A stretch of DNA of 37,713 bases from a virus (taxonomy: Duplodnaviria > Heunggongvirae > Uroviricota > Caudoviricetes). How positions within the stretch are numbered: position 1 is the stretch's first letter; the number at the start of each line of letters is the position of its first letter. Position numbers and translations under genes: made by a program. Shown in pieces: positions 23,710-37,477 of this stretch. The notes under the pieces were generated by a model. The model saw nothing but the letters and a program-made list of their open reading frames with translations. It did no database searches and was not told where the DNA came from. The stretch is from IMG/VR virus record IMGVR_UViG_2802429240_000007; one strand, written 5' to 3'.

Positions 23710-23712
23710 TAA

Positions 23713-25353
23713 TTACCATCCTCCTGAACCAAAACGCCCGCCACGGTCACGCCCGGTGCTGCGTGGGGTGTGTATCTGAAATTTTGCGCTGCGCGACACC
23801 GCCAGCGTCCACAGCATGTGCAGACAGTCCGGGCCGTCATCATGGTCGGCCTTGGGGTAGTGGCGCAGCTGGTCAATCAGCGTCTGATGTGCGGGACTGA
23901 TGCGAATCAGGCCGTTGGCCATATGCGGCTGAAGGGACTCAATACGCAGCGCCTTATCCTCCAGCGGGATGACCGGCAGCGCCGGAACCGGCACGCCCAG
24001 CGCCGCCGAACGTTCAACCAGCACGGTACGCAGAAACTCCTGAAACTGGACGGACTCAAACGACCAGCACAGGCAGTGGTATTCCCGCTGATACTTAATC
24101 ACGTCTTCGATAAGTTTATTTGGCAGACGTCGGCGGATATCGGCTTCAACCACATCCAGAATGCCGGTAAAACGGTTAAAGCCCCCCACGAGAATGGCCG
24201 ACGGGTCGCGGTTTTTATTCTTCTTCCCGAGGCTGGGGTCAACAGCGCCGTAGAACACCCATTCATCAAGACGGTTAACCCAGAACTTAATGCAGCCCGC
24301 AAACAGCGCGTCTTCACCGCTGACCGGGTCGTTCTGGTATTCAGAATCAAAGGTGTCGTGACCGTCACGGACACGGATTTTCATCAGCGCCAGCAGGGGA
24401 CGCGCCGCCCATGACACCACCGACCCGGCGAGCATGTCGGCTTCGTTCTGTCGGTAAAGTGCCTCCGCCGCTTCCGGCTGTTTGTTGCGGATGAGTTCTT
24501 CCCACTCGTCCCACAGTTTCATATTGGCAGGCCACTGAATGACGGCCTTAAAGCGGGCCGTTTTCCACATCGGGTTATTGAGCGTGCGCGAGAGTACGGA
24601 GTCGTAATGCAGGATGGTCCCGATATAAATAATATCGGTTTTACCGCCAGCCTCGCCCAGCGGCATCACGGTTTTGGTGAGCCAGTCGTGCAGCTTGTCG
24701 CGCTGCTCCGGGTTACGCACCATCTCGTCGTTCTCGATGTCGTCGAGGATGACCAGGTCAGGACGGTACGGACCGTGGCGCAGGCCACGCAGTTTTTTAC
24801 CACTACCGGCAACGGTCACCTTGATATTGTTGGCCGTGACGATGGTCCCCATACGCCAGACGCGCCCCTGTCCGCACACCTCCGGGAAATCGTTTTTTAA
24901 ACGGGGGTTAAATTCCAGTTCAGCCTTGATGGCTTCCAGCATCGGATAAGCCTGGTCGATACTGTCCATAATGATGACCGGATAATGCTTAATACCCCGG
25001 ATAATGGTCCACAGGGTAAACAGCTGAGTCACCAGCGTGGATTTTGCCTCACCACGAGGAGCGGCGATGGCGTCGTTCTCCGGGTCAGGGCTTGCCACAA
25101 CCTGTGGCAGCCGGATGAACAGGTATTTATGCAGCTCGCTTTTTGCCGGGTTGCGGACGTAGTGCGGGAAATAGTTTTCGACAAAATAATCGTAGCCCGT
25201 CACCGGATCGCAGACTGCCGCCCGGCGGGCCTGTGTGGCCTGCGGGTTAACATCGAACCCCAGACATTCAGCCTCGATGGTCTGTCGAAGGTTGGCGATG
25301 TACTCCTGTAAGCTTTTCTGAAACTCTTTAATGGAAAGTTTACGTTTTGCCAC
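23713..25353 (-). CDS. Terminase large subunit (Mu gp28-like); start uncertain
   Basis: Terminase-like N-terminal region and nuclease-like C-terminal region; no ATG at the 5' end, so the start is GTG at 25353 (just after the methyltransferase stop) or TTG at 25410 (55-nt overlap). Confidence 0.8.
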   Translation of the reverse strand: MAKRKLSIKEFQKSLQEYIANLRQTIEAECLGFDVNPQATQARRAAVCDPVTGYDYFVENYFPHYVRNPAKSELHKYLFIRLPQVVASPDPENDAIAAPRGEAKSTLVTQLFTLWTIIRGIKHYPVIIMDSIDQAYPMLEAIKAELEFNPRLKNDFPEVCGQGRVWRMGTIVTANNIKVTVAGSGKKLRGLRHGPYRPDLVILDDIENDEMVRNPEQRDKLHDWLTKTVMPLGEAGGKTDIIYIGTILHYDSVLSRTLNNPMWKTARFKAVIQWPANMKLWDEWEELIRNKQPEAAEALYRQNEADMLAGSVVSWAARPLLALMKIRVRDGHDTFDSEYQNDPVSGEDALFAGCIKFWVNRLDEWVFYGAVDPSLGKKNKNRDPSAILVGGFNRFTGILDVVEADIRRRLPNKLIEDVIKYQREYHCLCWSFESVQFQEFLRTVLVERSAALGVPVPALPVIPLEDKALRIESLQPHMANGLIRISPAHQTLIDQLRHYPKADHDDGPDCLHMLWTLAVSRSAKFQIHTPRSTGRDRGGRFGSGGW

Positions 25354-25354
25354 G

Positions 25355-26095
25355 TCACACCTGCGCTGCTTCTGCCTGCGCTTTTTCGAGACGTGCGCAG
25401 GCGATATCAAAATACTGGTTAGTCATTTCAATGCCGGTAAACCGTCCGCCACGGGCAAGTACAGGGATGGCGGTGGTGCCGCTTCCCATAAACGGATCGA
25501 GAACGTGCGCATCCGGTGCCAGCGGTTTAACCAGCTCGGCCATCAACTGAACCGGCTTTGCCGTCATGTGCAGTTTTTCGGACGGGACAACACGCTGCGT
25601 AATCACACCCGGGAACGGGCCACCGTGCGGGCATTTGTCGAGTTTTCCGTTGCTGCCCCAGACCACATACTCGGCCTGATGCCGGAAATAGCCGGTGTGT
25701 GGCGCACGGGAAGCAAGCGTTTTATCCCAGACAACCAGACCACGCCACAGCACACCACCGGCCTGAAATGCATCGGTAAGTGCCGGTAGTTGTCGCCAGT
25801 CACTGAACACCATGAAATAACCGCCGGGATTCAGCCTGTGCAATGCATGAGATATCCACATGGAACACCAGAACGCCCAGCTGCGCTGGTCGCGGTTATC
25901 GCCGGTGAACTCGGCATACTGGGTGTGACCGACATACTTGTCCGAAGGGGCCATGCTGCGGTCTGATTTGTGTGTGCCACCACTGCTGTAAGGCGGGTCG
26001 GTAATGACGGCATCAAAACGTTCAGATAACGCCGGCAGCACATCAAGAACATCACCGCAATACAACGTTGCGTTACCAATAATCTGTTTTTGCAT
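25355..26095 (-). CDS. DNA methyltransferase, beta-class amino-MTase, probably N6-adenine
   Basis: 246 aa; DPPY motif near the N-terminus (ITDPPYSSGG) and FxGxG AdoMet motif near the C-terminus (DPFMGSGTT), i.e. motif IV before motif I. Confidence 0.8.
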   Translation of the reverse strand: MQKQIIGNATLYCGDVLDVLPALSERFDAVITDPPYSSGGTHKSDRSMAPSDKYVGHTQYAEFTGDNRDQRSWAFWCSMWISHALHRLNPGGYFMVFSDWRQLPALTDAFQAGGVLWRGLVVWDKTLASRAPHTGYFRHQAEYVVWGSNGKLDKCPHGGPFPGVITQRVVPSEKLHMTAKPVQLMAELVKPLAPDAHVLDPFMGSGTTAIPVLARGGRFTGIEMTNQYFDIACARLEKAQAEAAQV

Positions 26096-26106
26096 TACAA
26101 ATCCCG

Positions 26107-26126
26107 AATATCAGACGGCCCGGAAA
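26107..26126. other. Perfect GC-rich hairpin between small-terminase-like gene and methyltransferase
   Basis: CGGCCCGG AAAA CCGGGCCG, 8-bp stem with 4-nt loop. Confidence 0.5.
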
Positions 26127-26141
26127 ACCGGGCCGCTGTGG

Positions 26142-26642
26142 TTAACTGAAATTATCCTCAAGCTCTTTAGCGAAGCCTTCGAGCACCTCAAGAAACGGGG
26201 CATACTGTGCCGGGTGACGCTCCTTGATGAACGTGCCGAGCCGCTGCACCACTTCCAGTGCCGTGGCGAGCCGGTCGGTTTCCGGCAGGATTTTTTTACT
26301 GCTGGCCACCGCCTTACTGAGACTGTCAGACAGACTCGCCAGCAGTTCGACGGACTCCTGCGGCGGGATGTCCGGGTTCTGGTTCAGCCGTTCAAGCGTC
26401 GTCTGACACTTCACCACCAGACTGATAAGCACGGTGCGGGCGACACTTTCCAGCCCGTCACCGGCGAGCGCGTGCGCGGCCCGCAGCTTGTCCCAGTCGT
26501 CGCCGTTCTTCATCGCCTGCGTTTTCCAGCGCCGCGCGGTGTCGTGCGGCACGGCGTACTTCATGGCGACGATATCCAGCGGAAGCTGGTCAAAGATGTA
26601 CCCGTTACGGACTTTGTCCCTGATATCCTGTGACCACGCCAT
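26142..26642 (-). CDS. Mu gp27-like protein, putative terminase small subunit
   Basis: 166 aa; position directly upstream of the terminase region. Confidence 0.5.
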   Translation of the reverse strand: MAWSQDIRDKVRNGYIFDQLPLDIVAMKYAVPHDTARRWKTQAMKNGDDWDKLRAAHALAGDGLESVARTVLISLVVKCQTTLERLNQNPDIPPQESVELLASLSDSLSKAVASSKKILPETDRLATALEVVQRLGTFIKERHPAQYAPFLEVLEGFAKELEDNFS

Positions 26643-26848
26643 TAAGTGACCTTCTGAGCCTGTTCAATCAGGCATTTAACTTCGTCGGGATTTTCAAGAA
26701 CATACACGTTTTTCCCGGTATCCAGCTCAATGATCGTGCCACCATATGCACCACACTGACGGTAAAAATGGGTGATGCGTTCAGCGACTACCATGACAGC
26801 GCTGGTGCTCCCTGAGCCTGCGCATTCTGTAAATCTGATAATGCTCAC
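26642..26848 (-). CDS. Hypothetical protein (Mu gp26 position)
   Basis: 68-aa ORF; start coupled to the upstream stop. Confidence 0.35.
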   Translation of the reverse strand: MSIIRFTECAGSGSTSAVMVVAERITHFYRQCGAYGGTIIELDTGKNVYVLENPDEVKCLIEQAQKVT

Positions 26849-26869
26849 TGTGTCAGACCTTCAAAAAAA

Positions 26870-27052
26870 TCAGTTCTGCGAACACTGCCGGATGCCATCA
26901 ACAATCCGGCAGACCTGCGCCGCCGCGTCAAACAGCTGGCCCGCCCTGTTAATGTCTGTGCATCCCACCGGAAGCAACATCACCAGAAACAGGGCCAGAA
27001 CACAGCGCGCGGTTTTACGTGGCGTTCTGTGGGTCCAGTGCTGACGCGTCAT
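26870..27052 (-). CDS. Putative lipoprotein, possible spanin component
   Basis: 60 aa; hydrophobic stretch followed by lipobox-like LPVGC; overlaps the endolysin stop by 4 nt. Confidence 0.4.
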   Translation of the reverse strand: MTRQHWTHRTPRKTARCVLALFLVMLLPVGCTDINRAGQLFDAAAQVCRIVDGIRQCSQN

Positions 27053-27594
27053 ACCGCCACGCGCTCCTTCAGCCAGCCATAAACAAACGATTCGTTAGCC
27101 TCGCGTTTCTCTGCCAGCTCCAGATAGCGGTCACCCTGCGTGCAGTTCAGGGCTGTCAGCATTACCCGTTCACCGTCCTGACCGCGATTATTCAGGAAGG
27201 CGCGCAATGCACTGATGGTACGAGGCCCGATGCGTCCGTCTGCGTCCATATCCGGGTACAGCCTGCCGCGCAGATTGAACACATTCAGCCAACGCTGAAG
27301 CATTTTTGACGCCACAGATGGCCCCATATTCACACCGGTATCACACAGCTCTGCGGCAATATCAGGGGATAATGCCGCAACCTGGTCAAATCGCGGGCCA
27401 TACCAGTAATCGGCTTCCAGAATGTCCAGCGCCTGTTCGCGGGTTAAATTGCGCATATCACCACGGTATCCGTGGGCGCGGGCGACTTTTTCCGTAATGC
27501 CCCATTTGGTCGGACCGCCCTTATCATCCGGGTGATTGACGTAACCACCTTCTTTGCCCAGGACTTCATCAAAAATGTCATCTTTTGATTTCAT
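27049..27594 (-). CDS. Endolysin, GH108-type muramidase with peptidoglycan-binding domain
   Basis: 181 aa; resembles glycoside hydrolase family 108 enzymes with a C-terminal PG-binding region. Confidence 0.75.
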   Translation of the reverse strand: MKSKDDIFDEVLGKEGGYVNHPDDKGGPTKWGITEKVARAHGYRGDMRNLTREQALDILEADYWYGPRFDQVAALSPDIAAELCDTGVNMGPSVASKMLQRWLNVFNLRGRLYPDMDADGRIGPRTISALRAFLNNRGQDGERVMLTALNCTQGDRYLELAEKREANESFVYGWLKERVAV

Positions 27595-27880
27595 GTGGAT
27601 GCCTCAGTAACGAAAGGATTTTTGACAAATTCCCGTGCGCCCACACGATAAGCGCACAGAACACCAGATTCAGCGCCACAACCAGCCAGCTGGAGTGCGT
27701 GTATGTACCGGACAGCCAGCGGAACGGGATGATGATGTAGCCGAGCATCAGCCAGTACGCCAGCCAGGTAATCATCGGTTTATGCGCCGCACCGTGGCGG
27801 CGATACACAAACAACCCCAGCACAATGGCGAGACACAGCCAGACGTTCACGATACCGGCAAGGTTACTTTCCATTTCCAC
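27578..27880 (-). CDS. Small membrane protein, holin/antiholin candidate
   Basis: 100 aa with about three hydrophobic helices; adjacent to the endolysin. Confidence 0.45.
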   Translation of the reverse strand: MEMESNLAGIVNVWLCLAIVLGLFVYRRHGAAHKPMITWLAYWLMLGYIIIPFRWLSGTYTHSSWLVVALNLVFCALIVWAHGNLSKILSLLRHPHEIKR

Positions 27881-28256
27881 CCCCTCCGCCGCGCAGTCTG
27901 GAAAACAGGCCGAACAGCGATGAAATTTCCTGTTGATAAAGAAAGGTCAGTATCTTGATGGATAACGCCGAGACACCGACCGCACACAATGCATCGAGCG
28001 GCTTGTCGTTGTAGTGGGTCAGCCACTGCATCAGTGACGCAGCCACGCCAGCCCCCAGAACGCCAACCACAAACGCGACGAGCAGGTGGATGGCCATTCG
28101 CCAGACCGGGATTTCTTTCTGCTGCGTGACAACAAAAAGCGCCCCGGCAAACGCGCCCACCACGACCCCGAAATCGGTATTGGTGAGAAGGCCAAACACA
28201 CTGGCACCACCGATGGTGACTGCCACAGCTCCGCCGCCTGATAAGGGTTCAGACAT
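27864..28256 (-). CDS. Membrane protein, holin candidate
   Basis: About 130 aa from the ATG at 28256 (MSEPLSGGG...), preceded by CAGGAGAAACTC; several TM segments; Gly-rich C-terminus. Confidence 0.45.
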   Translation of the reverse strand: MSEPLSGGGAVAVTIGGASVFGLLTNTDFGVVVGAFAGALFVVTQQKEIPVWRMAIHLLVAFVVGVLGAGVAASLMQWLTHYNDKPLDALCAVGVSALSIKILTFLYQQEISSLFGLFSRLRGGGGGNGK

Positions 28257-28392
28257 GAGTTTCTCCTGTAAATCTGAGCCACTGACGGCCCGTAAATAAC
28301 ACCCTGTCAAAGGCACAAAAGCCTTTTGCAGGGCGCTATCCCTTAAGGTGCCTTGTGGTCTGAGTGGACAGGGTAAACGGTCTGGTGTGGTG

Positions 28393-28418
28393 GGTACTGC
28401 TGGGGGTGTTCAGCACCC
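28393..28418 (-). promoter_or_regulatory. Conserved late-operon motif, copy 1 (plus-strand GGTACTGCTGGGGGTGTTCAGCACCC); candidate lysis promoter
   Basis: Intergenic between the Mor-region genes and the lysis cassette, about 140 nt upstream of the holin start. Confidence 0.45.
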
Positions 28419-28438
28419 CGCAGCGGCGGGGTGATAAA

Positions 28439-28750
28439 TCAGAAGCGGGAAAGGGAATCCGGCGTAATAAGAGATTTATTACAAAGCGGAGCAGAGGCGT
28501 TCGCCTTTTCCATAGCTGCGCGCATCTCGTTTTCACTGGCGATGATGTCAGCAATGGCACACTGCAACGCTTCTTCCTGAACAACCATATCCGGTTGTTC
28601 AGCCATTCGGTTTAGCTGGCTGGCCAGATTTTTCATATAAGCGAAGCGGCGTCCGGCAGCATCCCGGGCCTGCTCTGAGTAGGCCGTATACTCGCCAAGT
28701 GCCGTATAGTTGGTCATAAGTGTCTCCTTTTTCTGAGGCCTATTAATCAA
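28439..28750 (-). CDS. Hypothetical protein in the Mu C (late activator) position
   Basis: 103-aa ORF (possibly starting at MTNYTALGEY); no helix-turn-helix obvious by eye. Confidence 0.4.
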   Translation of the reverse strand: MINRPQKKETLMTNYTALGEYTAYSEQARDAAGRRFAYMKNLASQLNRMAEQPDMVVQEEALQCAIADIIASENEMRAAMEKANASAPLCNKSLITPDSLSRF

Positions 28751-29210
28751 AAAGCCCCACCTGGGTGGGGCTTTTCAGCGAAGTCTGTTTTTGTCGTCGG
28801 TGTATCAGTTGCCATGCGTACCGATCTGAAATCCCGTAACGGGGACAGAGCAGTGCCAGCGCCTGCCGGTGTGAGCATCCGTCTTTTACATGCTGCTGTA
28901 AATCAGCCATAAAACGGGTGTTACGCAAGGCACGTAACGCATGATCACAACGGGGAATGTAAAACGGTGCACCGCCAAGAAAGCGGATCAGTTTGTTGAT
29001 TTCGTCTTCGGTCAGCACGTCATGTAACAGGGCATGGACACCGCCGGTGCGTCCGGCGTGTGCGCCGGTTTTACCGCTTAACGTCACGCCACCAAAAGAA
29101 CGAATCAACCGGGTCAGGGCGGGGAAGCCAATCACGCTAATCAGTTGCTGCACGGAATCGGGCAGCAGTGCCTGCGCATCGCGAAGATCTGTTTCACTGA
29201 AGGTCTGCAT
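28743..29210 (-). CDS. mor: Mor/C-family transcription activator
   Basis: 155 aa; C-terminal HTH-like segment (RYGISDRYAWQLI); directly downstream of the GemA-like gene as in Mu. Confidence 0.75.
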   Translation of the reverse strand: MQTFSETDLRDAQALLPDSVQQLISVIGFPALTRLIRSFGGVTLSGKTGAHAGRTGGVHALLHDVLTEDEINKLIRFLGGAPFYIPRCDHALRALRNTRFMADLQQHVKDGCSHRQALALLCPRYGISDRYAWQLIHRRQKQTSLKSPTQVGLFD

Positions 29211-29305
29211 GATGGCGTCTCCGGTAGTAACTTACTGTTATTATAGCCATACATGATCGCCTGTACAGACCACAAAAAAGCCCCTGCAAGGCAGGGGCTG
29301 ATTCT

Positions 29306-29719
29306 TTATTGTTTACGTGCTGCTCTGGCTCGTTTTCTGGCGTCTTTTGTCAGCGCCACCATCACCCCGAACAGTTGATCATCTGTCAGCCATTCGATCA
29401 CATGTTGCTTATACATGTGAGATGCCAGTCCTTCCGCATATGCCCAGGAACGACCGGCATCAGCCAGCAACGCTTCAATTTTGGATAATACCGATTTTCT
29501 GCTCATTGCCACACGGGGGCGGCGACCTTTACCGGCGGGGGCTTTACGCGGAAATCCCTGTTCGTGCATGTATTCCCGGATGATGCGCAGTTCATCGAGG
29601 TTGCAGCGTGTGGTGCTGGTTTTACCGGTCAGTCGGGCCAGCGTCTGGCGATAAAGGGCATCATCCCACCCCAGATACGCCTGACCGGCTTTAATGGCCC
29701 CGATCATCTTTTTCAGCAT
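29306..29719 (-). CDS. gemA: GemA-like regulatory protein
   Basis: Start taken at the MLKKMIGAIKAGQ ATG (29719); character of the GemA family; precedes mor. Confidence 0.65.
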   Translation of the reverse strand: MLKKMIGAIKAGQAYLGWDDALYRQTLARLTGKTSTTRCNLDELRIIREYMHEQGFPRKAPAGKGRRPRVAMSRKSVLSKIEALLADAGRSWAYAEGLASHMYKQHVIEWLTDDQLFGVMVALTKDARKRARAARKQ

Positions 29720-30005
29720 GTTTGTTATCCTCAAAACGCACGGTAAAACGTGAAACGCCAATCCCTGACAGGAACGCGGCGGCACGGTCAAGAGACAGCC
29801 ACGTCTTGTAATCGCCACGGCGTTCCTGTAGAAAATAGGACACCCCGGCGTGGCGATTCACAGCGAAGAGGTGATACACACCACCGAACCGCTGCACGAC
29901 GAACTCATCCACGCCACCGCTTTCAGCCTGTTGCCTGAAAGCTGCCATTCCGATTTGTTCAATCTTCATAATGACCAAAACACTACTTTTGGCAGACCAA
30001 AACAT
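29691..30005 (-). CDS. Hypothetical early protein
   Basis: 104-aa ORF whose 3' end overlaps the gemA start. Confidence 0.35.
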   Translation of the reverse strand: MFWSAKSSVLVIMKIEQIGMAAFRQQAESGGVDEFVVQRFGGVYHLFAVNRHAGVSYFLQERRGDYKTWLSLDRAAAFLSGIGVSRFTVRFEDNKHAEKDDRGH

Positions 30006-30049
30006 ATGTTTTGGTCTGCGCTTGATTGTTATTTGCTCAATGCGGTGAA

Positions 30050-30301
30050 TTATTTATCACCATCACCGAGCGTCACTTCATGACAGGATGGCGTGCCATT
30101 TTTCCCCGCAGAGCAATAAATAAACTTATCCCCGCTGGTCATGGTGGCGCTTCCATCATCACAATGCGTAATGGTTTTGATTAAATTTCTCCTTACCACG
30201 CAATGCCCACTTTCCGCATCATCAGAAGCCTTGTTAGTTGTCACACAAAGCGCAATACCCGTAACAATCAGAGCGATAATAAAAAGGTCAGCCCATCTCA
30301 T
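30050..30301 (-). CDS. Cys-rich putative lipoprotein (84 aa)
   Basis: Start MRWADLFIIALIVTGIALC, with a lipobox-like IALC; mature part has 5 further cysteines. Confidence 0.45.
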   Translation of the reverse strand: MRWADLFIIALIVTGIALCVTTNKASDDAESGHCVVRRNLIKTITHCDDGSATMTSGDKFIYCSAGKNGTPSCHEVTLGDGDK

Positions 30302-30400
30302 ATTTTCACCCCGCGTTATCAGGAACGTCGATTTCAACCGTTACGGTGATAGTTTTCATCGAGTTGTTACTCCGTGATTCAGAAAATTCCATACCGAGCC

Positions 30401-30811
30401 TCAGTATGTAAAATAGACAGTTGCCACGCCGTTATAGTGATCAAACGATACGGCGTTTACTTCATAGCTGGCCGGGAGCTTCGAGCCGAGAACGTATCCG
30501 GGCCACGTTTTCCATGGAATTTCTCTGCTCTCACCATCGCCATATACCGTACATCCCAGTGAGCCTACAGCTTCAGAAGAACGCTTACCGCACGTTATGA
30601 ACCCCAGATTTTGCTTACTGTCCTTAACAGAAATCGGGAGAGCACTGGCTGATGCATTAGCAGCACGCTGTGCCTGTTGGTTTGCGATATTCGCAGAGTT
30701 CGCAGCAGCTGCGGCAGCAGTGGTCGCAGCAGTAGATGCCACAATAACTGCTGAAGCCTGCGCCTGTTGGGTAATGGTCAGCAATGCCGCCACAAAAATC
30801 ATTTTCTTCAC
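30401..30811 (-). CDS. Secreted protein with Ala-rich linker (136 aa)
   Basis: Signal peptide MKKMIFVAALLTITQQAQA; AGGAGG RBS 6 nt before the GTG at 30811; low-complexity Ala/Thr/Asn segment then a ~80-aa C-terminal domain with 2 Cys. Confidence 0.5.
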   Translation of the reverse strand: MKKMIFVAALLTITQQAQASAVIVASTAATTAAAAAANSANIANQQAQRAANASASALPISVKDSKQNLGFITCGKRSSEAVGSLGCTVYGDGESREIPWKTWPGYVLGSKLPASYEVNAVSFDHYNGVATVYFTY

Positions 30812-30823
30812 CTGGTACCTCCT

Positions 30824-31003
30824 TTACATACCGTGATTTTTCCAGCGGTTTTGTGCTGCACTTCTACGTCGCCCGGCACCGTAAAAATGCGTTGGTAACC
30901 ATCGTGCAAGGCCAGAAGGCGCATAACGAATAACAAGCCGATTTGAGATACGGATAAGCTGCCCGGGTTTTGCTATCAGCAGTCTTGCTTTACGGTTTTT
31001 CAT
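30824..31003 (-). CDS. Small basic protein B (59 aa), paralogue of A
   Basis: MKNRKARLLIAKPGQLIRISNRLVIRYAPSGLARWLPTHFYGAGRRRSAAQNRWKNHGM; ATG overlaps the stop of ORF A (ATGA); below the 60-aa cutoff of the ORF track. Confidence 0.35.
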   Translation of the reverse strand: MKNRKARLLIAKPGQLIRISNRLVIRYAPSGLARWLPTHFYGAGRRRSAAQNRWKNHGM

Positions 31004-31176
31004 CGTACTGCATACCCTTTCTTCCGCCTGTTCTGTGACGCGCTAGGCTTACGCTTTGCGGCAAAAGCCACCTGACCAAATGGATGGAGCACCGCTATCT
31101 TATGGTTGCTGATAACCAGCTCCACCACACGCACAGGTCGCTGTAAAAAAAGTCGTTTTGCTTTACGGTTTTTCAT
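31000..31176 (-). CDS. Small basic protein A (58 aa), paralogue of B
   Basis: MKNRKAKRLFLQRPVRVVELVISNHKIAVLHPFGQVAFAAKRKPSASQNRRKKGYAVR; AGGAGA RBS 8 nt upstream; first 22 nt identical to ORF B. Confidence 0.35.
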   Translation of the reverse strand: MKNRKAKRLFLQRPVRVVELVISNHKIAVLHPFGQVAFAAKRKPSASQNRRKKGYAVR

Positions 31177-31180
31177 CGTT

Positions 31181-31369
31181 TCATTCTCCTGTATTTACTA
31201 CTGACTCTGCACTGTCAGCCCTGCGGCGCTCCTGAAGTTCCAGCATTGCGGCCCGGAAATCCTGCCACCATTCCTCATCGGCAACGGGGGTGTTCCGCTC
31301 CAGCACCTTGTCCGCATCGGCAATCAGTCTGGTCAGGCTCTTATCGCTTATTCTGGTTTGCTGGTTCAC
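31181..31369 (-). CDS. Hypothetical small early protein
   Basis: 62-aa ORF, coupled to the upstream gene. Confidence 0.4.
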   Translation of the reverse strand: MNQQTRISDKSLTRLIADADKVLERNTPVADEEWWQDFRAAMLELQERRRADSAESVVNTGE

Positions 31370-31590
31370 TGCGTCGCCTCCTGTTTTGCCACTTTAAACG
31401 CCCGTAACATCGGGACCGTTTTACCGGTGATGACGGTTATCATTAAAATGCCGCCACTGCTTTCGTGTATCGCGTCAGGAGCCACAAACAAAGCCGCATC
31501 CACAACCCGCCAGTAACGGCGAAATTCCCAGAACCAGCAGGAGATAGTGATAACTGCGGTACCATTGCGTTCATAAAACTCAATATTCAT
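31366..31590 (-). CDS. Hypothetical small early protein
   Basis: 74-aa ORF in the early-operon array. Confidence 0.4.
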   Translation of the reverse strand: MNIEFYERNGTAVITISCWFWEFRRYWRVVDAALFVAPDAIHESSGGILMITVITGKTVPMLRAFKVAKQEATQ

Positions 31591-31814
31591 TTACAGTTAA
31601 ACCTCCTTTTATGACGCTCTACGGCGGCTTTCATGGCGTTGTGCACAGTTCTTTTAATAATCCGGCGTCCTGCACTGTCATAGAACCGCCACCGGGAAGC
31701 ACCTGGATATCCGGGGAACTCAACCGCCGCGCTACCGTCATTCATCCTGTATTCGTGGCGTTCTCCGGGCGGCTGGTATATTGCTTCGGTAACACTGAGA
31801 AGTTTAAAAGCCAT
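31587..31814 (-). CDS. Hypothetical small early protein
   Basis: 75-aa ORF in the early-operon array. Confidence 0.4.
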   Translation of the reverse strand: MAFKLLSVTEAIYQPPGERHEYRMNDGSAAVEFPGYPGASRWRFYDSAGRRIIKRTVHNAMKAAVERHKRRFNCK

Positions 31815-31816
31815 CG

Positions 31817-32527
31817 TTACACCCTCCCCAGTGCCAGCGTTTTGTTGCTCTGACCATTAACCCCCTGATGCAGCCTGGCGTTTTTCCCGGCGATAAAACC
31901 GGCAGTAGCGGCAAACTCTGCACCCCGGCACGCTTTAGCTGTGCGCATATCCCCGTCGCGCAGCCCTTTAGTGCTGTGCAGGTTCTTTCTGTAAAGCTCA
32001 AGGAGGTTTCTTTCTTCCGGTGAGACGTCATACACTGCAATTACTTTTCGCGCTCCGAATACCCAGCCTTCACAGAACTGGTCGCCACGGGCTACCCGCG
32101 TGGACGGGCCGCAACGTTTGCAGTGTTTATCCTGATATTTCTTGCGCTCTGCCATCATCTGACGGGAAAGCACATCAAACGCGTAAGCCGCGATTTCCGG
32201 GCGGCTGTCAGGGCCATAAAAACGCACGTAACGTTTGAGTGAACCAGAGGCCCGGTACTCACCGGAGATATAACACTTAACACCGAAGGCATTGCAGACC
32301 AGACCACACAGAACGTGCATATAACGCGGCGGCGTACTGGCATCACTCGGCGCACCCGCGCTTGCCGCTTCCTGAATGTCGAACAATTCAGCGCAGTTTT
32401 CGCTGATACCATGCTGGCGCATATAAGCCTGGGCTTTTGCAATAGCGTTAGCGGCTTCTTCCGGGCTTGATGTCCCTCTGGCAAGGCGCAACAGTTTTTT
32501 GATTTTGGCAATGTATTTATCTTTCAT
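31817..32527 (-). CDS. DUF2786-like phage protein with Cys-rich C-terminal half
   Basis: 236 aa; N-terminus KIKKLLRLARGTSSPEEAANAIAKAQ is typical of that family; C-terminal region has CxxC-type cysteines. Confidence 0.55.
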   Translation of the reverse strand: MKDKYIAKIKKLLRLARGTSSPEEAANAIAKAQAYMRQHGISENCAELFDIQEAASAGAPSDASTPPRYMHVLCGLVCNAFGVKCYISGEYRASGSLKRYVRFYGPDSRPEIAAYAFDVLSRQMMAERKKYQDKHCKRCGPSTRVARGDQFCEGWVFGARKVIAVYDVSPEERNLLELYRKNLHSTKGLRDGDMRTAKACRGAEFAATAGFIAGKNARLHQGVNGQSNKTLALGRV

Positions 32528-32615
32528 GGTTGTAACTCATTGTTTTTGATCAACTTATAACCGCAAGACACTTGTCATAATCGCTGCCCCAACATGCCCA
32601 ATCAGGAGTTAAAAA

Positions 32616-32834
32616 ATGATTGATGATGAAATTGCGGCAGCAATTACTGCTAACAAAGCTGCGTGGAGCTTTCTGGTTAAACAGCTTTCAGAAAATGGCT
32701 GTCTGAACCTCAGCGCCCTGGATTCTGAATTACGCAACTTCCAGCACGGCCTTCAGGAACGTGGGGAGTTCGTTCTGGCTGCGGCGCTGGATGAACATCT
32801 GCTGTCGATTGAGAACTGGTCGCAAGACGATTAA
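32616..32834 (+). CDS. Small acidic protein (72 aa), antisense to the early operon
   Basis: ATG preceded by CAGGAG 7 nt upstream; followed by terminator-like hairpins; the only plus-strand gene with an RBS inside the prophage. Confidence 0.5.
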   Translation: MIDDEIAAAITANKAAWSFLVKQLSENGCLNLSALDSELRNFQHGLQERGEFVLAAALDEHLLSIENWSQDD

Positions 32835-32913
32835 AACAAACGATTGTCAGATTAATTTCGCGGGCGAATTTTTTTTGCTTGGCGATATTCATAAATAAAC
32901 TTCCTCAGATTCA

Positions 32914-32950
32914 GGCGTAAGCCAGCCCCGGCGGGTTTACGCCTGTTTTA
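32914..32950 (+). terminator. Rho-independent terminator after the antisense small gene
   Basis: GGCGTAA ... TTACGCC stem with GC-rich interior, followed by TGTTTT; a weaker hairpin plus T8 tract at about 32855-32878. Confidence 0.5.
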
Positions 32951-32974
32951 AATAACAATTAAAATTGAATTAAA

Positions 32975-33166
32975 TTAATGCGCTGCTTTCAGTGTTTCGA
33001 CTTTAACGAAATAAGGCTCGACATTAATTTCAACCACACAACCACATTTAAAATCTCTGGCAGGTGAAACGGTTTTCACCACCCGACCACCACGCACCGC
33101 CTGATGTGCAATGTGCATGAAACGAGTACCAGGCGGATATAACTGATTAAAGCGTTTCGCGTTCAT
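32975..33166 (-). CDS. Hypothetical small early protein
   Basis: 63-aa ORF in the early operon. Confidence 0.4.
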   Translation of the reverse strand: MNAKRFNQLYPPGTRFMHIAHQAVRGGRVVKTVSPARDFKCGCVVEINVEPYFVKVETLKAAH

Positions 33167-33380
33167 GAATCGGCTTCCATCCTTTCAGGTGAGCATTAGC
33201 ACAGAACGCTGCCCGGTGTTCCGCCCAGATGCGGCGCAGGGTGCTACACGGGCTTTGTGCTGCCTTACGCCACAGCTTTTCAGCCTCAGCATAATCGCCG
33301 CGTTGTTCTGCTCTGGACGCGCCCAGCGAATACGCTGCGCAACGGTTCCCGGCCCTGTACTCTTTGATATCCTGATGCAT
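33147..33380 (-). CDS. Small early protein, possibly ANR-family regulator
   Basis: Start at the MHQDIKEYRAGN ATG (33380), just after the upstream stop; family assignment from memory and uncertain. Confidence 0.35.
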   Translation of the reverse strand: MHQDIKEYRAGNRCAAYSLGASRAEQRGDYAEAEKLWRKAAQSPCSTLRRIWAEHRAAFCANAHLKGWKPIHERETL

Positions 33381-33381
33381 G

Positions 33382-34026
33382 TTAGACCCCTGCAATATCA
33401 AGCGGGATTGCGCGGTATTCAGCAGAATCACCGACGCGCTCATACACGCGGATATAGCTTCTGCTGCCAATTACCTGGACGGCTTCACCAATCAGCGTCA
33501 TGGCGTTATTCCAGCGTTCGTCCTCAATTTCGAGGCGACGCAGAGCCAGAACGCGCCCGGTGTTAATGTTGCCTTCCTTGTCCGTGCTGAATGCCTCACT
33601 GATGATGGCTTTGATTTCTGGGCGTGCACCTTCCGTCCAGTCAGCCAGGCAGTCATCAATCAGTGCCTTCGCGGTCTGAATGCGTTCATCAAGCGCAATA
33701 CGGTCCTGCATGGCGCGCTGAATCTTGTAACGCCCGTCAAAGCTGTAAAGCGTGATATTCCCTTTTTTACCGCCTTTCACAGCGCCGTATTTCTCCGCTG
33801 ACAGGTCAATAAATGCCTGAATATCACCAAACGCACGCAGTTTCAGTTCACGCAGTGAGGCGGAGGCAGCAATCACCATCTCCACAAGCTCACCGACCAA
33901 CTGCTCACGGTCTCGGTCAATATCTTTGATAAGACTTTCAGGCGTCATCACACCACGGGCATCAACCCAGTAGCCTTCCTGCACTTTATTTTTTGTATAT
34001 TGCTTAACTTTATTTTCAGTCGTCAT
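33382..34026 (-). CDS. DUF3164-like Mu-type early protein
   Basis: 214 aa in the semi-essential early region. Confidence 0.5.
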   Translation of the reverse strand: MTTENKVKQYTKNKVQEGYWVDARGVMTPESLIKDIDRDREQLVGELVEMVIAASASLRELKLRAFGDIQAFIDLSAEKYGAVKGGKKGNITLYSFDGRYKIQRAMQDRIALDERIQTAKALIDDCLADWTEGARPEIKAIISEAFSTDKEGNINTGRVLALRRLEIEDERWNNAMTLIGEAVQVIGSRSYIRVYERVGDSAEYRAIPLDIAGV

Positions 34027-34055
34027 AATTAAATTACCTCAGTGATATTTACAGA

Positions 34056-34271
34056 TTAATTTGTGTTATGTGCGCGAGGCGCAACGTTTTCAGAAAAAAG
34101 ATTCACGCCGTTATAGTCATTTCTGAGCGTTTCCTTGATAACATCATGTAATCTTGTTGCCACCTGAAACTCCTTTTCGGAAGCTCCGTCCTCCGAATAA
34201 CTCCCCGTGGTCTGGGTTAAAACACAGCCTTTTTCATCGGTATAGATAATTACTTCTAACTTAACCGCCAT
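34056..34271 (-). CDS. Hypothetical small early protein
   Basis: 71-aa ORF downstream of B. Confidence 0.4.
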   Translation of the reverse strand: MAVKLEVIIYTDEKGCVLTQTTGSYSEDGASEKEFQVATRLHDVIKETLRNDYNGVNLFSENVAPRAHNTN

Positions 34272-34283
34272 TCTGATTTCCTC

Positions 34284-34523
34284 TCATTGCCATACGACGG
34301 TGCAGCCGTCGATACAGGACGTTTTCACCACGCGGCGCAGGCCGCTGAATGTCTGGATGATTTCCGTTACCGGCCATACAGGACCACCCACGGGCGGGCA
34401 GGCATAAACCACAGGTAAACGGTGATGCTGTCCCGTTACACGACCGCCAGTGGTGTGGATGGCCACACGGGCACGGGAACGGACGGCGTTAATGGTCTGC
34501 TTGTCCATCGTCTTGTTCTCCAT
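34284..34523 (-). CDS. Hypothetical small early protein
   Basis: 79-aa ORF; start overlaps the B stop. Confidence 0.4.
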   Translation of the reverse strand: MENKTMDKQTINAVRSRARVAIHTTGGRVTGQHHRLPVVYACPPVGGPVWPVTEIIQTFSGLRRVVKTSCIDGCTVVWQ

Positions 34524-35416
34524 CAGTGAATTAACATTTCTGCGAATTTATCAATGGCCTGCACACTGACCGGTGCATCGCTGATATCACAAATCCGGTA
34601 CACACCGCGCGCCAGTTTGAAGAGGCGGCGGGCATTACCCAGCGAGCGTGCGTAAAGCGCCTCGCTGATTTCCGGTTCTGCTGCTTCCGGCATCAACCCG
34701 GTAGCTATCTGGTTAAAATCTTCCTGCGACAACGTATCGCCCAGGTTAAGCGCCAGCGCCACACGGCTGTATAACTGGGCGAACTCACCACGACGCCCCT
34801 TAAGGTTAATCAGAAGACGAGGCATACCCGCCAGGACAACCCCGATACCCGCTTTGTCATGCAGACGACGCAGAACCTCCAGTGCGCGATAGGGGAGCAG
34901 TTCAGCCTCGTCCACCATCAGCAGGCGACCGGAATCACGCAGTTCGCGCACACAGGCATCTATCAGTTCGTGAATGTTGCCGCGAACCTTTACCCCCAGC
35001 TGGCGGCACAACTCCTCAAGCAGTGTTCTGGCTGTATAGCCCGGGTCAGCCTCAATCAGGACCGCATCCCGGTTTCTGGCGGCGTATTCACGCAGAATCA
35101 TTGTTTTGCCAAGACCTGCCGCGCCATACAGTACGCAGATTTCACATTCCAGGTGAGCATAGGCCAACACCTCCAGTCCTTTGGCAGCCATACCGGTGGC
35201 AACAAATTTCGCTTTAATACGGCGGCTGTTTTCCTTTTCCCGCTCACGGGTCACAAAGGCAGAAATGCGTTCTTCAATATCAGCCATATCGCCCTGATAT
35301 TTACCCTGTAAATACTGGTTGATAACGGCGCTGCTACGACCAATAGCACGGGCGACGTGGGTTTGCGTATAGCCGCGACGGGCCATTACGTCATTTAATT
35401 GCGTAATTAAACTCAT
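34523..35416 (-). CDS. DNA transposition ATPase (Mu B-like)
   Basis: 297 aa; N-terminal HTH-like segment; Walker A GAAGLGKT; Walker B-like LLMVDEAE. Confidence 0.85.
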   Translation of the reverse strand: MSLITQLNDVMARRGYTQTHVARAIGRSSAVINQYLQGKYQGDMADIEERISAFVTREREKENSRRIKAKFVATGMAAKGLEVLAYAHLECEICVLYGAAGLGKTMILREYAARNRDAVLIEADPGYTARTLLEELCRQLGVKVRGNIHELIDACVRELRDSGRLLMVDEAELLPYRALEVLRRLHDKAGIGVVLAGMPRLLINLKGRRGEFAQLYSRVALALNLGDTLSQEDFNQIATGLMPEAAEPEISEALYARSLGNARRLFKLARGVYRICDISDAPVSVQAIDKFAEMLIH

Positions 35417-35434
35417 AATTAAATACCTTTTAAA

Positions 35435-37477
35435 TTAACGGTTGTTTGTGCCGTTTTTCTTTAAATTGCGCTCGCGTTCAGATGCGAATAAATAAAGTTC
35501 TTCTTTTTCCTTTTTCTCCTGGCGTTCCAGTCCATATCCCAGATTAAACTCAGGCTTCTGCGTAATAGCCGGGGTAAGCTCGCGTTTAGCCTCTTCGATT
35601 TTCTGCGCGGCCCGTGCAATGCGGCCTCTGACGCGTTTCTCCAGTTTTTGCTCGATAACTGGTTTAGCGAAGGCATCAACCTTGTTACCGTTCCAGATGG
35701 CATCGCAGATATAAGAGCCATCAGCCCGCCGGACAATGACACTGTTTGCATCATGAATATCGTAACTGACCCTGACTTCATTCCCGTGCTCTGCGGCCAG
35801 CTCATACGAGTAATAAATATTGTTGAATAACTGAATTTCCCCGCGAAATGTTTTGCGCGTCACTTCCGGTCTGAACATTTCATGCAGTTCTTCCGGCGAC
35901 AGGAAATCAATTTCAACATTCTGCTCTTTTATCAGTTTCCGGCGATACGCTGCCGGGCTGTAATATTCGCCATCCTCTTTGCGGGGAAGGCTGCTGTGTG
36001 GCCGGTTGTTATAGCGTCTGACCTCCAGTTCTATGGCTGCCATCAGTTGCTCAAAGGTGGGGATTTCATCCCTCGCCTTAACCTGCCGTTTTGTCAGTTC
36101 TTTCCCTTTGTGGGTGGCCTTAATGGCTGACTGCATAATCCGTTGCTGCATCATTACGGTTTCCTTGTCTGCTCCCTTTGAGCAGTACGTCTGGAAACTC
36201 AGGGCCACATCCCGGGGAATTTCCTTGTTAAGCCTTTCAATCACCCCGCGCCCCTGCGGGTTACCTGGTATCCCCGTGTGATGTTCCACACCCAGCCGGG
36301 GGAGAATCCCGGTAATATCGGCATCAAGAACCCGGTTTTTTTCGCCGCCCCCGTTATCGGAGTAATAAATCAGCGGTATCCCGTGCTGTGCCATGCCGTA
36401 ACGCAACGCATCAGCAACGGCTATCACGTTCTCCGACAGGGACAGCGACCAGCCCACAACAAAGCGTTGCCCCGCATCCATAACCAGCGTCACTTCTGGC
36501 CGGAAAATATTGCCGGTCAGTGGGTTAAACGCGGTCATCTTCATACAGTGACCATCCCCGACCCATACCGCATTAACCGGTAGCGATGTCCAGTCGCGCC
36601 GCACAAAGGGATTGAGCGAACGCCAGGCTGAACCGGTGGAGCGGAAACGCTCCTTAACAATCACCGGGACGTTGCTTAACACCCGTCTTACTGCGTGAAC
36701 GGAAGGCAGTGCTGCCAGCATTCCCGCATCATTCGCGTGTTTTTCATGCCACCAGGCTGAAAACTCGCGATACGCATATTCAACGGTCGGGCGCTTCCAT
36801 GAGCGATAGAACATAAAGAAATCGCTCAACCACCAGACCTGCTCCCACGGAGTTCCCTTATGATGACCGGGAGCCAGTAACGCCAGTAACTGATTGGCAT
36901 CACCGCGCGCCATCAGCCAGGCGGAATACCATTCCTGTAAACTCCCTGTACTGACGCCAGTTCGCTTACCCTGCCGGGCATTGGCGGTATTACCTGCCAC
37001 AATAACGCGCTCTGGCAAAGCCTCCTGGCGGATACCATCAACGATGTGTTTTATCGCTGCCGTCCTGGACATTCCTGCGTATTCACGCAGTTTATGCACT
37101 TCGGTAGCCAGCAATATCCGCGCATCAGCGATGGCCTTTTGCTTGTCGGTCAGTGCCTGAACTTCGCGTAATGCCAGTTCCGGGCATTTGACCATCACTT
37201 CCAGTTCATCGCGAACGGTAACGTTTTTAACTGCCTTCTGCTCAACCACGGCAGGCAGTTGTGCATCTTCCAGAACCTGATGGGTCAGGCGCTTACGTAA
37301 AACCTTCTGCGCTTCAGCGGGCAGACAGTCGATGTGATACTCGAATGCTTTGGTGCCTTCACGCTTGCGCTTCCATTCCGGGTGCGTCTCTGTGATCCGA
37401 TTGAGCGTCCAGCGCACCCCCTGAACTGTACCGGGCAAACCAGGAAGACCGGCCAGCTCATTGGCTGAATAAAACAT
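35435..37477 (-). CDS. DDE transposase (Mu A-like)
   Basis: 680 aa; N-terminal DNA-binding region and central catalytic core of MuA-like size and layout; directly between ner and B. Confidence 0.9.
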   Translation of the reverse strand: MFYSANELAGLPGLPGTVQGVRWTLNRITETHPEWKRKREGTKAFEYHIDCLPAEAQKVLRKRLTHQVLEDAQLPAVVEQKAVKNVTVRDELEVMVKCPELALREVQALTDKQKAIADARILLATEVHKLREYAGMSRTAAIKHIVDGIRQEALPERVIVAGNTANARQGKRTGVSTGSLQEWYSAWLMARGDANQLLALLAPGHHKGTPWEQVWWLSDFFMFYRSWKRPTVEYAYREFSAWWHEKHANDAGMLAALPSVHAVRRVLSNVPVIVKERFRSTGSAWRSLNPFVRRDWTSLPVNAVWVGDGHCMKMTAFNPLTGNIFRPEVTLVMDAGQRFVVGWSLSLSENVIAVADALRYGMAQHGIPLIYYSDNGGGEKNRVLDADITGILPRLGVEHHTGIPGNPQGRGVIERLNKEIPRDVALSFQTYCSKGADKETVMMQQRIMQSAIKATHKGKELTKRQVKARDEIPTFEQLMAAIELEVRRYNNRPHSSLPRKEDGEYYSPAAYRRKLIKEQNVEIDFLSPEELHEMFRPEVTRKTFRGEIQLFNNIYYSYELAAEHGNEVRVSYDIHDANSVIVRRADGSYICDAIWNGNKVDAFAKPVIEQKLEKRVRGRIARAAQKIEEAKRELTPAITQKPEFNLGYGLERQEKKEKEELYLFASERERNLKKNGTNNR

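What the first reader, a model, noticed from the sequence alone, without database searches (positions are those of the whole stretch)
30824..31180. Translationally coupled pair of small basic paralogues sharing an identical 22-nt 5' end
Two ORFs of 58-59 aa (31000..31176 and 30824..31003, minus strand) both begin MKNRKA and are rich in Arg/Lys. The stop of the first overlaps the start of the second, and the second ends 6 nt before the AGGAGG of the next gene. Their first 22 nt are identical at DNA level (plus-strand TTGCTTTACGGTTTTTCATCGT at 30984-31005 and 31157-31178) while the rest has diverged. That pattern suggests either recent gene conversion or nucleotide-level constraint on the start region. 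Both fall below the 60-aa cutoff of the ORF track.
Basis: seen in the sequence. Interest (0 to 1): 0.55.

Follow-up and report, generated by a model that had tools for sequence, protein, structure and literature searches.

The report
Tandem small basic phage genes
Two back-to-back genes for tiny, highly basic proteins in a Mu-like prophage belong to an uncharacterised phage gene family that phages swap like cassettes, and the family may be distantly related to the bacterial ribosome-binding protein Sra.

Summary
Two minus-strand ORFs, A (31000..31176, 58 aa) and B (30824..31003, 59 aa), overlap by ATGA and share an exact 22-mer.

Both are genuine genes of PHROG 1380, a family of unknown function. 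pN/pS is 0.2-0.5, and nothing suggests a structured RNA.

The ATGA-coupled pair is the family's usual layout: 82 of 88 sampled loci have it. The first gene always ends ...GYAVR.

The shared 5' block is a property of the E. coli-phage pool, not of this pair. Distant members encode the same NRKAK peptide with other codons, so the nucleotides are not universally constrained. The conserved ends act as crossover points:
- One sibling Mu-like prophage has only B.
- Another has A plus a different second core.
- Copy A is 96% identical to genes in Stx, P1-like and phiV10-type phages.

The function has not been tested. One divergent member hits Pfam SRA_like at 19 bits, below the cut-off of 25. Targeted profile tests link the family to Sra, a 30S-binding protein, at P about 1e-2 to 5e-5. 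This link is suggestive, not proven.

As found, this is an ordinary member of a known but uncharacterised family. The Sra lead is worth testing.

The parts
31000..31176 (-). Copy A: 58-aa basic protein (MKNRKAKRLFLQRPVRVVELVISNHKIAVLHPFGQVAFAAKRKPSASQNRRKKGYAVR), the first-position cassette with the GYAVR tail
   Evidence: ORF. PHROG 1380, E 3e-23, full length. 96% nt identity to genes of phages TL-2011c/b and about 95% to P1-like RCS47. pN/pS 0.27 among 18 distinct A-type sequences.
30824..31003 (-). Copy B: 59-aa basic protein (MKNRKARLLIAKPGQLIRISNRLVIRYAPSGLARWLPTHFYGAGRRRSAAQNRWKNHGM), the second-position cassette with the QNRWKNH tail
   Evidence: ORF. PHROG 1380, E 9e-10. 26 protein clusters at 64-95% identity in Escherichia, Citrobacter and Klebsiella. 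Against the Citrobacter braakii orthologue, pS 0.67, pN 0.14, ratio 0.21.
31158..31179 (-). 22-nt repeat, copy 1 (ACG + ATGAAAAACCGTAAAGCAA): the start region of A
   Evidence: Exact match; 0 expected by chance. 25 nt with 1 mismatch.
30985..31006 (-). 22-nt repeat, copy 2: the last codons of A, the ATGA overlap and the start region of B
   Evidence: It marks the boundary of the unit that is absent from the single-copy sibling prophage L002.
31000..31003 (-). ATGA stop/start overlap between A and B, a presumed site of translational coupling
   Evidence: The same 4-nt overlap is present in 82 of 82 two-gene arrays. Coupling itself is inferred.
31186..31190 (-). Shine-Dalgarno-like AGGAG, 9 nt before A's ATG. 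The upstream 62-aa ORF stops at 31181..31183, 4 nt before the ATG.
   Evidence: Read from the sequence. The block CAGGAGA...AACGATG is also conserved upstream of first copies in lambdoid and P1-like phages.
30818..30823 (-). AGGAGG directly after B's stop codon: the ribosome-binding site of the next gene (GTG at 30811)
   Evidence: Read from the sequence.

Best explanation
Shown:
- The interval holds two real, translated genes of one small phage protein family, PHROG 1380. Members are 55-65 aa with pI about 12. Shared motifs are M(K/N)NRKAK.LL at the N-terminus, (R/K)ISN(R/H)(R/K) in the middle and (K/R)xSA(A/S)QNR(W/R)K near the C-terminus.
- The genes lie in the early operon of a Mu-like transposable prophage, between the DUF2786 gene and gemA/mor.
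- A two-gene array with an ATGA stop/start overlap is the family's usual form. The first gene always carries a ...KKGYAVR tail, whose codons form the junction to the second gene.
- The variable cores sit between conserved 5' and 3' blocks and occur in many combinations.
- The 22-mer is the conserved 5' block: the last upstream bases plus codons 1-7.
- Copy number and core type differ between otherwise collinear sibling prophages, exactly at these blocks.
- Copy A is nearly identical to genes in unrelated lambdoid, P1-like and phiV10-like phages.

Inferred:
- The identical 22-mers reflect strong protein-level conservation of MKNRKAK combined with homologous recombination at short conserved blocks within the E. 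coli phage pool. That recombination inserts, deletes and swaps cassettes.
- B is translated mainly by termination-reinitiation after A, so the two proteins are made together.

Inferred with lower confidence (about 0.4): the proteins are remote relatives, or at least functional analogues, of the 45-aa 30S-binding factor Sra (RpsV, 'S22'). On this reading they act early in phage development by binding ribosomal RNA or the small subunit.
For: Family and coding status:
- PHROG 1380 hits for both genes.
- Within-type pN/pS of 0.20-0.52; B against its Citrobacter orthologue has pS 0.67 and pN 0.14.
- 34 clusters at 50% identity in 1.84 billion representative proteins, all carrying the same three motifs.

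Context:
- Mu transposase, MuB-like ATPase, GemA and Mor in the window. Collinear E. coli prophages.

Arrays:
- 82 of 88 loci carry exactly two genes with a 4-nt overlap. The first gene has the GYAVR tail in 82 of 82.
- At least 10 different core combinations exist, plus single-gene and three-gene arrays. A+B was seen only in this window.

Recombination at the blocks:
- L002 carries only the B orthologue, L001 carries A plus a different core, and the flanks are about 91% identical.
- Copy A is one of only two segments of window 20000-37713 with megablast similarity to any phage record (the other is the 136-aa gene, 82% to lytic phage Av-05), and the only one shared with lambdoid, P1-like and phiV10-type phages. 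That homology ends inside the 5' blocks.

The 5' block:
- Near-invariant in 75 distinct E. coli-phage sequences.
- Same-codon frequency is 0.94-1.0 at codons 1-4, against 0.19-0.45 at other invariant residues.
- Other codons are used in distant members.

No sign of an RNA element:
- No Rfam match. Fold z-scores of -1.5, -0.5 and +0.2. No promoter or terminator inside the pair.

Sra lead:
- Member P0065 hits Pfam SRA_like as its only Pfam match, 19 bits, E 0.0019.
- It shares 11 of 20 residues with Sra positions 3-22 without a gap.
- hhalign of the family against Sra gives P 5.7e-4 and beats 300 of 300 column shuffles.
- A family HMM built without P0065 scores natural Sra sequences at 8.6-15.1 bits. 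Shuffled Sra sequences reach the real score in 0, 1 and 17 of 20,000 trials.
- Other small basic ribosome-associated proteins score 0.3 bits or less.
- Sra is a 45-aa basic protein that binds the 30S subunit tightly and has no known function (PMC10502375).
Against: - Translation, coupling and any activity were not measured.
- The Sra link is weak. Neither window protein hits Pfam SRA_like, and P0065 falls below the gathering score (19 against 25 bits).
- hhalign probability is only 17-29%. P rises to 0.013 when all P0065-like sequences are removed.
- The similarity covers only about 24 N-terminal columns.
- The unbiased profile search of 1.84 billion proteins did not retrieve Sra.
- The AlphaFold models (pLDDT 72 and 68) share only the N-terminal helix.
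- Fold searches found nothing.
- The direction of the copy-number change (gain or loss of A) is unknown.
- The sampled loci were chosen by similarity to copy A, which inflates the share of arrays that begin with A.
Confidence: 0.7

Rival explanations
1. The 22-mer is conserved because the nucleotide sequence itself is functional. It would be a translation-initiation or coupling element: an unstructured, A-rich start with a fixed context that must be kept for efficient reinitiation.
For: - Across 8 core types, codons 1-4 and 6 use the same codon in 90-100% of comparisons. Other invariant residues do so in 19-45%.
- CGT is invariant in 75 distinct sequences.
- Both start regions are predicted to be unstructured.
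- Chromosomal sra uses the same AAA/AAC/CGT/GCA codons.
Against: - Members from Citrobacter and metagenomes keep the peptide but use AAT, CGC/CGA/AGA and GCG/GCT/GCC.
- The three bases before the ATG vary (AAG, ACG, GCG).
- The excess identity is confined to a gene pool in which recombination at this block is directly visible.
Confidence: 0.2
2. The interval encodes a structured or regulatory RNA, and the ORFs are incidental.
For: Conserved 5' and 3' nucleotide blocks flank a variable centre.
Against: - No Rfam match at E up to 1.
- Folding energies are not different from shuffles (z -1.5, -0.5, +0.2).
- The reading frame is kept open across saturated divergence (pS 0.67) with pN/pS about 0.2.
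- Three conserved amino-acid motifs are encoded by varying codons.
Confidence: 0.03
3. The proteins are real but have nothing to do with ribosomes. They could be small nucleic-acid-binding regulators, host-takeover or anti-defence factors, or toxic peptides typical of accessory early regions. On this view the resemblance to Sra is convergence of short arginine/lysine-rich motifs.
For: - They sit among accessory early genes of unknown function in Mu-like, lambdoid and P1-like phages.
- The cores are hypervariable and shuffle combinatorially, as in arms-race genes.
- The Sra similarity is short and below curated thresholds.
Against: - The similarity to Sra depends on residue order (shuffle tests).
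- It is specific among small basic proteins.
- It starts at the N-terminus in both families, and one subgroup has identical motif spacing.
- No PADLOC match.
Confidence: 0.4
4. The pair is a recent local tandem duplication, followed by gene conversion of the 5' end within this prophage.
For: - Direct repeats spaced 173 nt apart.
- A single-copy sibling prophage exists.
Against: - A and B belong to different, anciently diverged core types (38% identity).
- Each is independently present in other phages and hosts.
- A is 96% identical to genes in lambdoid phages.
- The 5' block is shared by the whole gene pool.
Confidence: 0.05

Closest known systems
PHROG 1380 (phage protein family of unknown function), including phiV10 p50/p51, the VT2-Sa p08-like genes of Stx-converting phages, and TL-2011c and RCS47 hypothetical proteins
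   Same: - Full-length HMM matches for both genes.
- Same three motifs, same size, and the same tandem ATGA-coupled layout.
- Copy A is 96% identical in DNA to the TL-2011c gene.
   Different: - Here the genes sit in a Mu-like transposable prophage rather than in the ead/Ea22 or nin region of lambdoid, P1-like or phiV10-type phages.
- The A+B core combination was not seen in any other sampled locus.
[quoted passage not shown]
   Same: - Tiny, very basic proteins restricted to Enterobacteriaceae or their phages.
- N-terminal NR.A+..L followed by (K/R)ISN.(R/K).
- Targeted profile tests give P about 1e-2 to 5e-5.
- One family member hits the Pfam model.
   Different: - Sra is a single chromosomal gene beside osmC and maeA and is induced in stationary phase.
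- It lacks the C-terminal SAAQNRWKNH motif.
- The window proteins do not reach any Pfam threshold, are phage early genes, and come in pairs.
Conserved boundary sequences at gene junctions that mediate mosaicism in lambdoid phages (general knowledge, not checked against a paper here)
   Same: Short conserved blocks at gene starts and ends coincide with the breakpoints of homology between otherwise unrelated genomes.
   Different: Here the blocks lie inside the coding sequence of one paralogous family and also mediate changes in tandem copy number.
Accessory genes of the semi-essential early region of phage Mu, between B and gemA/mor
   Same: Same genomic position, same strand, and small accessory ORFs in the early operon.
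   Different: No homology to a named Mu gene was found or claimed. The neighbouring genes are all PHROGs of unknown function.

Membership tests
PHROG 1380 | Significant full-length match to the family HMM | tested here: met
   A: E 3e-23, residues 1-58 on profile 1-60 of 62. B: E 9e-10, residues 1-58 on profile 1-57 of 62.
PHROG 1380 | Shared motifs: M(K/N)NRKAK, ISN(R/H)(R/K) and SA(A/S)QNR(W/R)K | tested here: met
   All three motifs are present in A and B. They are invariant or nearly invariant columns in the 39-sequence alignment.
Pfam PF08136 SRA_like (ribosome hibernation factor SRA) | Score at or above the Pfam gathering threshold (25 bits) | tested here: not met
   A and B give no hit at E up to 10. 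The best family member, P0065, scores 19 bits.
Pfam PF08136 SRA_like (ribosome hibernation factor SRA) | Remote homology detectable by profile-profile or HMM comparison | tested here: inconclusive
   - hhalign P ranges from 5.7e-4 to 0.013 depending on the alignment; probability is 3-29%.
- The observed score exceeds 300 of 300 column shuffles.
- Shuffled Sra sequences reach the real score in 0 to 17 of 20,000 trials.
- Sra was not retrieved in the library-wide search.
Sra / RpsV | Tight binding to the 30S ribosomal subunit | not testable with these tools
   This needs sucrose-gradient co-sedimentation or cryo-EM. No Sra chain is present in the PDB copy.
Sra / RpsV | Chromosomal locus beside osmC and maeA | tested here: not met
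   sra lies between osmC and maeA. A and B lie in a Mu-like prophage early operon with no promoter of their own.
Sra / RpsV | Stationary-phase (RpoS/ppGpp) control of expression | not tested
   Expression control of A and B was not examined; it needs transcript or reporter measurements. The only indirect observation is that no promoter of their own was found inside the pair.
Translationally coupled gene pair | Overlapping stop and start codons, with a weak or absent Shine-Dalgarno sequence for the distal gene | tested here: met
   ATGA at 31003..31000. Only AAAGGG lies 11 nt upstream of B's ATG. The overlap is conserved in 82 of 82 pairs.
Translationally coupled gene pair | Translation of the distal gene depends on translation of the proximal gene | not testable with these tools
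   This needs reporter fusions with a premature stop codon in A.
Recombining cassette array (mosaic tandem paralogues) | Copy number and cassette identity vary between collinear relatives, with breakpoints in the conserved blocks | tested here: met
   - L002 has one copy; L001 has A plus a different core; L033 and L036 have three copies.
- Breakpoints lie at the 5' block and at the 3' QNR block.

The most novel reading that the evidence does not exclude
PHROG 1380 proteins are phage-borne relatives of the 30S-binding factor Sra. If so, temperate enterobacterial phages, including Stx-converting phages, would express coupled pairs of Sra-like proteins early in development to bind and modulate host ribosomes. 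Chromosomal sra was recently proposed to be a de novo gene born within Enterobacteriaceae (bioRxiv 10.1101/2025.11.04.686544). It would instead be a domesticated, shortened phage gene, or the source of the phage family.
Probability: 0.35. Interest if true: 0.75.

Novelty: new member of a known kind. Interest (0 to 1): 0.42.

Why it matters
Taken at face value, this is one more pair of uncharacterised small accessory genes. Its odd 22-nt identity is explained by ordinary phage mosaicism.

Two points give it some value.
- It is a clean, small example of short conserved blocks inside coding sequence acting as crossover points. These let phages of different types (Mu-like, lambdoid, P1-like, phiV10-like) add, drop and swap gene cassettes.
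- The family is carried by medically important Stx-converting phages and shows a specific but weak resemblance to Sra. Sra is an abundant ribosome-associated protein whose function and origin are still unknown. If the link holds, it offers an evolutionary origin for Sra and a set of natural variants for probing what Sra-like proteins do on the ribosome.

Tried and rejected
- Pfam and NCBIfam scans of A, B and three relatives gave nothing. PADLOC gave nothing for A or B.
- A profile search of PDB sequences with the family gave nothing, and Sra itself is not in the PDB copy.
- Structure-based searches gave nothing:
  - AlphaFold of B had pLDDT 72. Foldseek against PDB had a best E of 1.1, with CsrA-like hits that were not significant.
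  - AlphaFold of Sra had pLDDT 68. Foldseek against BFVD found nothing.
  - The afdb50 library was unavailable.
- The Rfam scan and RNA folding gave no support for an RNA element.
- The promoter and terminator scan found nothing inside the pair.
- The genome-contig scan returned only two loci. One is a 228-nt contig that is probably contamination.
- The viral-contig scan with the Sra alignment found no phage-borne bona fide Sra.
- Literature searches for family peptides, PHROG 1380, phiV10 p50 or a phage-Sra link found nothing. The Izutsu 2001 paper on Sra is not held.
- I rejected a programmed frameshift or A-B fusion. No slippery site lies in A's frame before its stop codon.
- I set aside the best-scoring Sra sequence, P0085 (20.6 bits, with a C-terminal match). 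Its tail looks like a frameshifted Salmonella-type Sra.

Full report
**Observation**

The window carries two adjacent minus-strand ORFs. A is 31000..31176 (58 aa) and B is 30824..31003 (59 aa). Both begin MKNRKA.

A's TGA stop overlaps B's ATG (ATGA). The 22-mer ACGATGAAAAACCGTAAAGCAA occurs exactly twice, at 31158-31179 and 30985-31006. No further copy appears even with three mismatches, and none is expected by chance. The repeat extends to 25 nt with one mismatch.

Also, B's stop codon abuts the AGGAGG of the next gene rather than ending 6 nt before it; the 6 nt lie between AGGAGG and the GTG at 30811.

Outside the repeat the genes are about 60% identical in DNA and 38% in protein. Both proteins have pI about 12 and net charges of +15 and +14.

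**Context**

The window is almost entirely a Mu-like transposable prophage. It carries a Mu transposase, a MuB-like AAA ATPase, DUF3164, DUF2786, GemA and Mor. It is inserted next to araH, which is only about 90% identical to E. coli araH.

The pair lies in the early operon between DUF2786 and gemA/mor, among small genes that are all PHROGs of unknown function. No promoter-like or terminator-like site lies inside the pair. Collinear prophages in E. coli chromosomes are about 90-91% identical across this 1.2-kb interval.

**Are they genes?**

Yes. Both match PHROG 1380 over their full length (E 3e-23 and 9e-10).

Homologues of B occur in Escherichia, Citrobacter and Klebsiella. Homologues of A occur mainly in E. 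coli. A profile search of 1.84 billion representative proteins found only 34 clusters, so the family is narrow. All members share three motifs:
- an N-terminal M(K/N)NRKAK.LL;
- a central (R/K)ISN(R/H)(R/K);
- a C-terminal (K/R)xSA(A/S)QNR(W/R)K.

Within core types pN/pS is 0.20-0.52. Between the window's B and the Citrobacter braakii orthologue, synonymous sites are near saturation (pS 0.67) while pN is 0.14.

No Rfam family matches. RNA folding energies are ordinary (z -1.5 for the whole interval; -0.5 and +0.2 for the two start regions). The structured-RNA alternative is therefore rejected.

**The pair is the family's normal form**

I scanned 88 loci with a family HMM: the window, the annotated phage and E. 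coli regions, and 80 viral contigs. Of these, 82 hold exactly two family genes with the same 4-nt overlap. In all 82 the first gene ends G(Y/N/D)AVR and the second has a QNRWKNH-type tail.

The GYAVR codons (GGGTACGCAGTA(A/C)GATGA) are themselves the junction to the second gene. Eight core types occur in at least ten combinations, as well as single-gene and three-gene arrays. Two core types appear in either position, taking the tail that fits the position. The A+B combination was seen only in this window.

These loci were retrieved by similarity to A, so the share of arrays that begin with A is inflated. More divergent members from metagenomes mostly occur singly.

**What the 22-mer is**

It is the family's conserved 5' block. 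Among 75 distinct DNA sequences from E. coli phages, nearly all begin ATGAAAAACCGTAA(A/G)GCAA. The identity between A and B is therefore inherited from the gene pool and needs no conversion event within this locus.

The blocks coincide with recombination breakpoints:
- One sibling Mu-like prophage (L002) has only the B orthologue. It differs from the window by exactly the unit between the repeats.
- Another (L001) has A followed by a different core. Homology to the window resumes at the 3' QNR block.
- Within window 20000-37713, copy A is one of only two segments with megablast similarity to any deposited phage; the other is the 136-aa gene, which matches lytic phage Av-05 at 82%. Copy A is 93-97% identical to Stx phages TL-2011c/b, P1-like RCS47 and others, and that homology ends in the 5' blocks on both sides.

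Is the nucleotide sequence itself constrained? Within the E. coli-phage pool, codons 1-4 and 6 are synonymously identical in 90-100% of between-type comparisons. Other invariant residues show 19-45%.

Distant members, however, encode the same peptide with other codons (AATAATCGCAAAGCA, AACAACAGAAAAGCC, AAGAACAGACTCGCT, ACAAACCGCAAAGCA and others).

I conclude three things. The peptide is under protein-level selection. The exact nucleotide identity reflects recombinational homogenisation within one pool. Any extra selection on the initiation region is at most a secondary contributor.

**Function**

Nothing is known for PHROG 1380, and no paper mentions its sequences.

One lead emerged. The divergent member P0065 carries a precomputed Pfam hit to PF08136 SRA_like. 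I reproduced it at 19 bits, E 0.0019, below the gathering score of 25, and it is that protein's only Pfam hit. P0065 residues 4-23 (NNRKARRILGMPFKFSNRKA) match Sra residues 3-22 ([20 protein letters not shown]) at 11 of 20 positions without a gap.

I then tested the link deliberately:
- hhalign of the family against an Sra alignment gave P 5.7e-4 (probability 29%), above all 300 column-shuffled controls.
- A family HMM built without P0065 scored every Sra sequence positively, with natural divergent Sra at 15 bits and E. coli Sra at 8.6 bits. Shuffled versions reached those scores in 0, 1 and 17 of 20,000 trials.
- Other small basic ribosome-associated proteins scored 0.3 bits or less.

Evidence against the link:
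- The window's A and B have no Pfam hit of their own.
- With a larger alignment P is 0.0014, and without all P0065-like sequences it is 0.013.
- Only about 24 N-terminal columns align.
- The best-scoring Sra variant, P0085, probably owes its C-terminal match to a frameshift, so I discounted it.
- The AlphaFold models share only an N-terminal helix, and fold searches were empty.

I rate true homology at roughly even odds or slightly better, and a shared ribosome-binding mechanism at about 0.35-0.4.

Sra is a 45-aa basic protein that binds the 30S subunit tightly, and its function is unknown (PMC10502375; PMC9959377). A 2025 preprint suggests it arose de novo within Enterobacteriaceae and does not mention phages. 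I found no paper linking Sra to phage genes.

**Verdict**

The striking 22-mer is a family-wide recombination and N-terminal block, not a special feature of this locus.

The finding is a new member, and a new combination of cores, of a known but uncharacterised phage family, placed in a Mu-like rather than a lambdoid context. Its main residual interest is the testable possibility that the family is Sra-like.

Noticed in passing
window 30401-30811 (-): The next gene encodes a 136-aa protein with a signal-peptide-like N-terminus and an Ala-rich stretch (phrog_8805, no Pfam hit). It is 82% identical in DNA to a gene of the lytic 121-kb phage Av-05. Apart from copy A, it is the only segment of window 20000-37713 with megablast similarity to a deposited phage, so it looks like another horizontally mobile gene.
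   Followed up: partly
window 29240-29299 (-): A strong 9-bp GC-rich hairpin followed by a T-run (29299..29279) reads as a terminator on both strands. It lies between gemA and mor and is followed by a promoter-like site, TGTACA-16-TATAAT (29267..29240). The layout resembles the end of the Mu early transcript followed by the middle promoter for mor.
   Followed up: no
window 1-987 (+): The host flank is araH, only about 88-90% identical to araH in 5,400 E. coli genomes. The host is probably a non-coli Escherichia or a close relative, and the Mu-like prophage ends next to araH.
   Followed up: partly
L004 2199-2375 (-), L006 1882-2058 (-): In lambdoid and phiV10-type arrays, a third 58-aa basic ORF (phrog_13831, MRVACIGLL...AAKKRRRTKR) precedes the first MKNRKAK gene and is also joined to it by an ATGA overlap. 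The Mu-like window has an unrelated 62-aa ORF in that position.
   Followed up: no
proteins P0040, P0046, P0058, P0063: These are chimeric ORFs in which the N-terminal part of a family member is fused in frame to unrelated downstream genes. They suggest frequent deletions or illegitimate joins at these arrays.
   Followed up: no
L088 (JQCU01000388.1, 228 nt): A 228-nt contig filed under Acinetobacter idrijaensis carries copy A at 98% identity, followed by the start of another A-type copy. It is probably contamination or an assembly artefact rather than a genuine Acinetobacter gene.
   Followed up: no
L003 3964-4474 and relatives H34-H38, H41-H46: In sibling Mu-like prophages, the genes just upstream of the pair are replaced by DUF4752 or ead/Ea22-like genes that are typical of lambdoid early-left regions. 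The whole neighbourhood therefore exchanges modules with lambdoid phages.
   Followed up: no
L095 2501-2638, L096 2501-2638: Chromosomal sra begins ATGAAATCGAACCGTCAGGCA. It uses the same AAA, AAC, CGT and GCA codons as the phage family's 5' block. This is weakly suggestive of shared ancestry or of shared constraints on the start region.
   Followed up: partly
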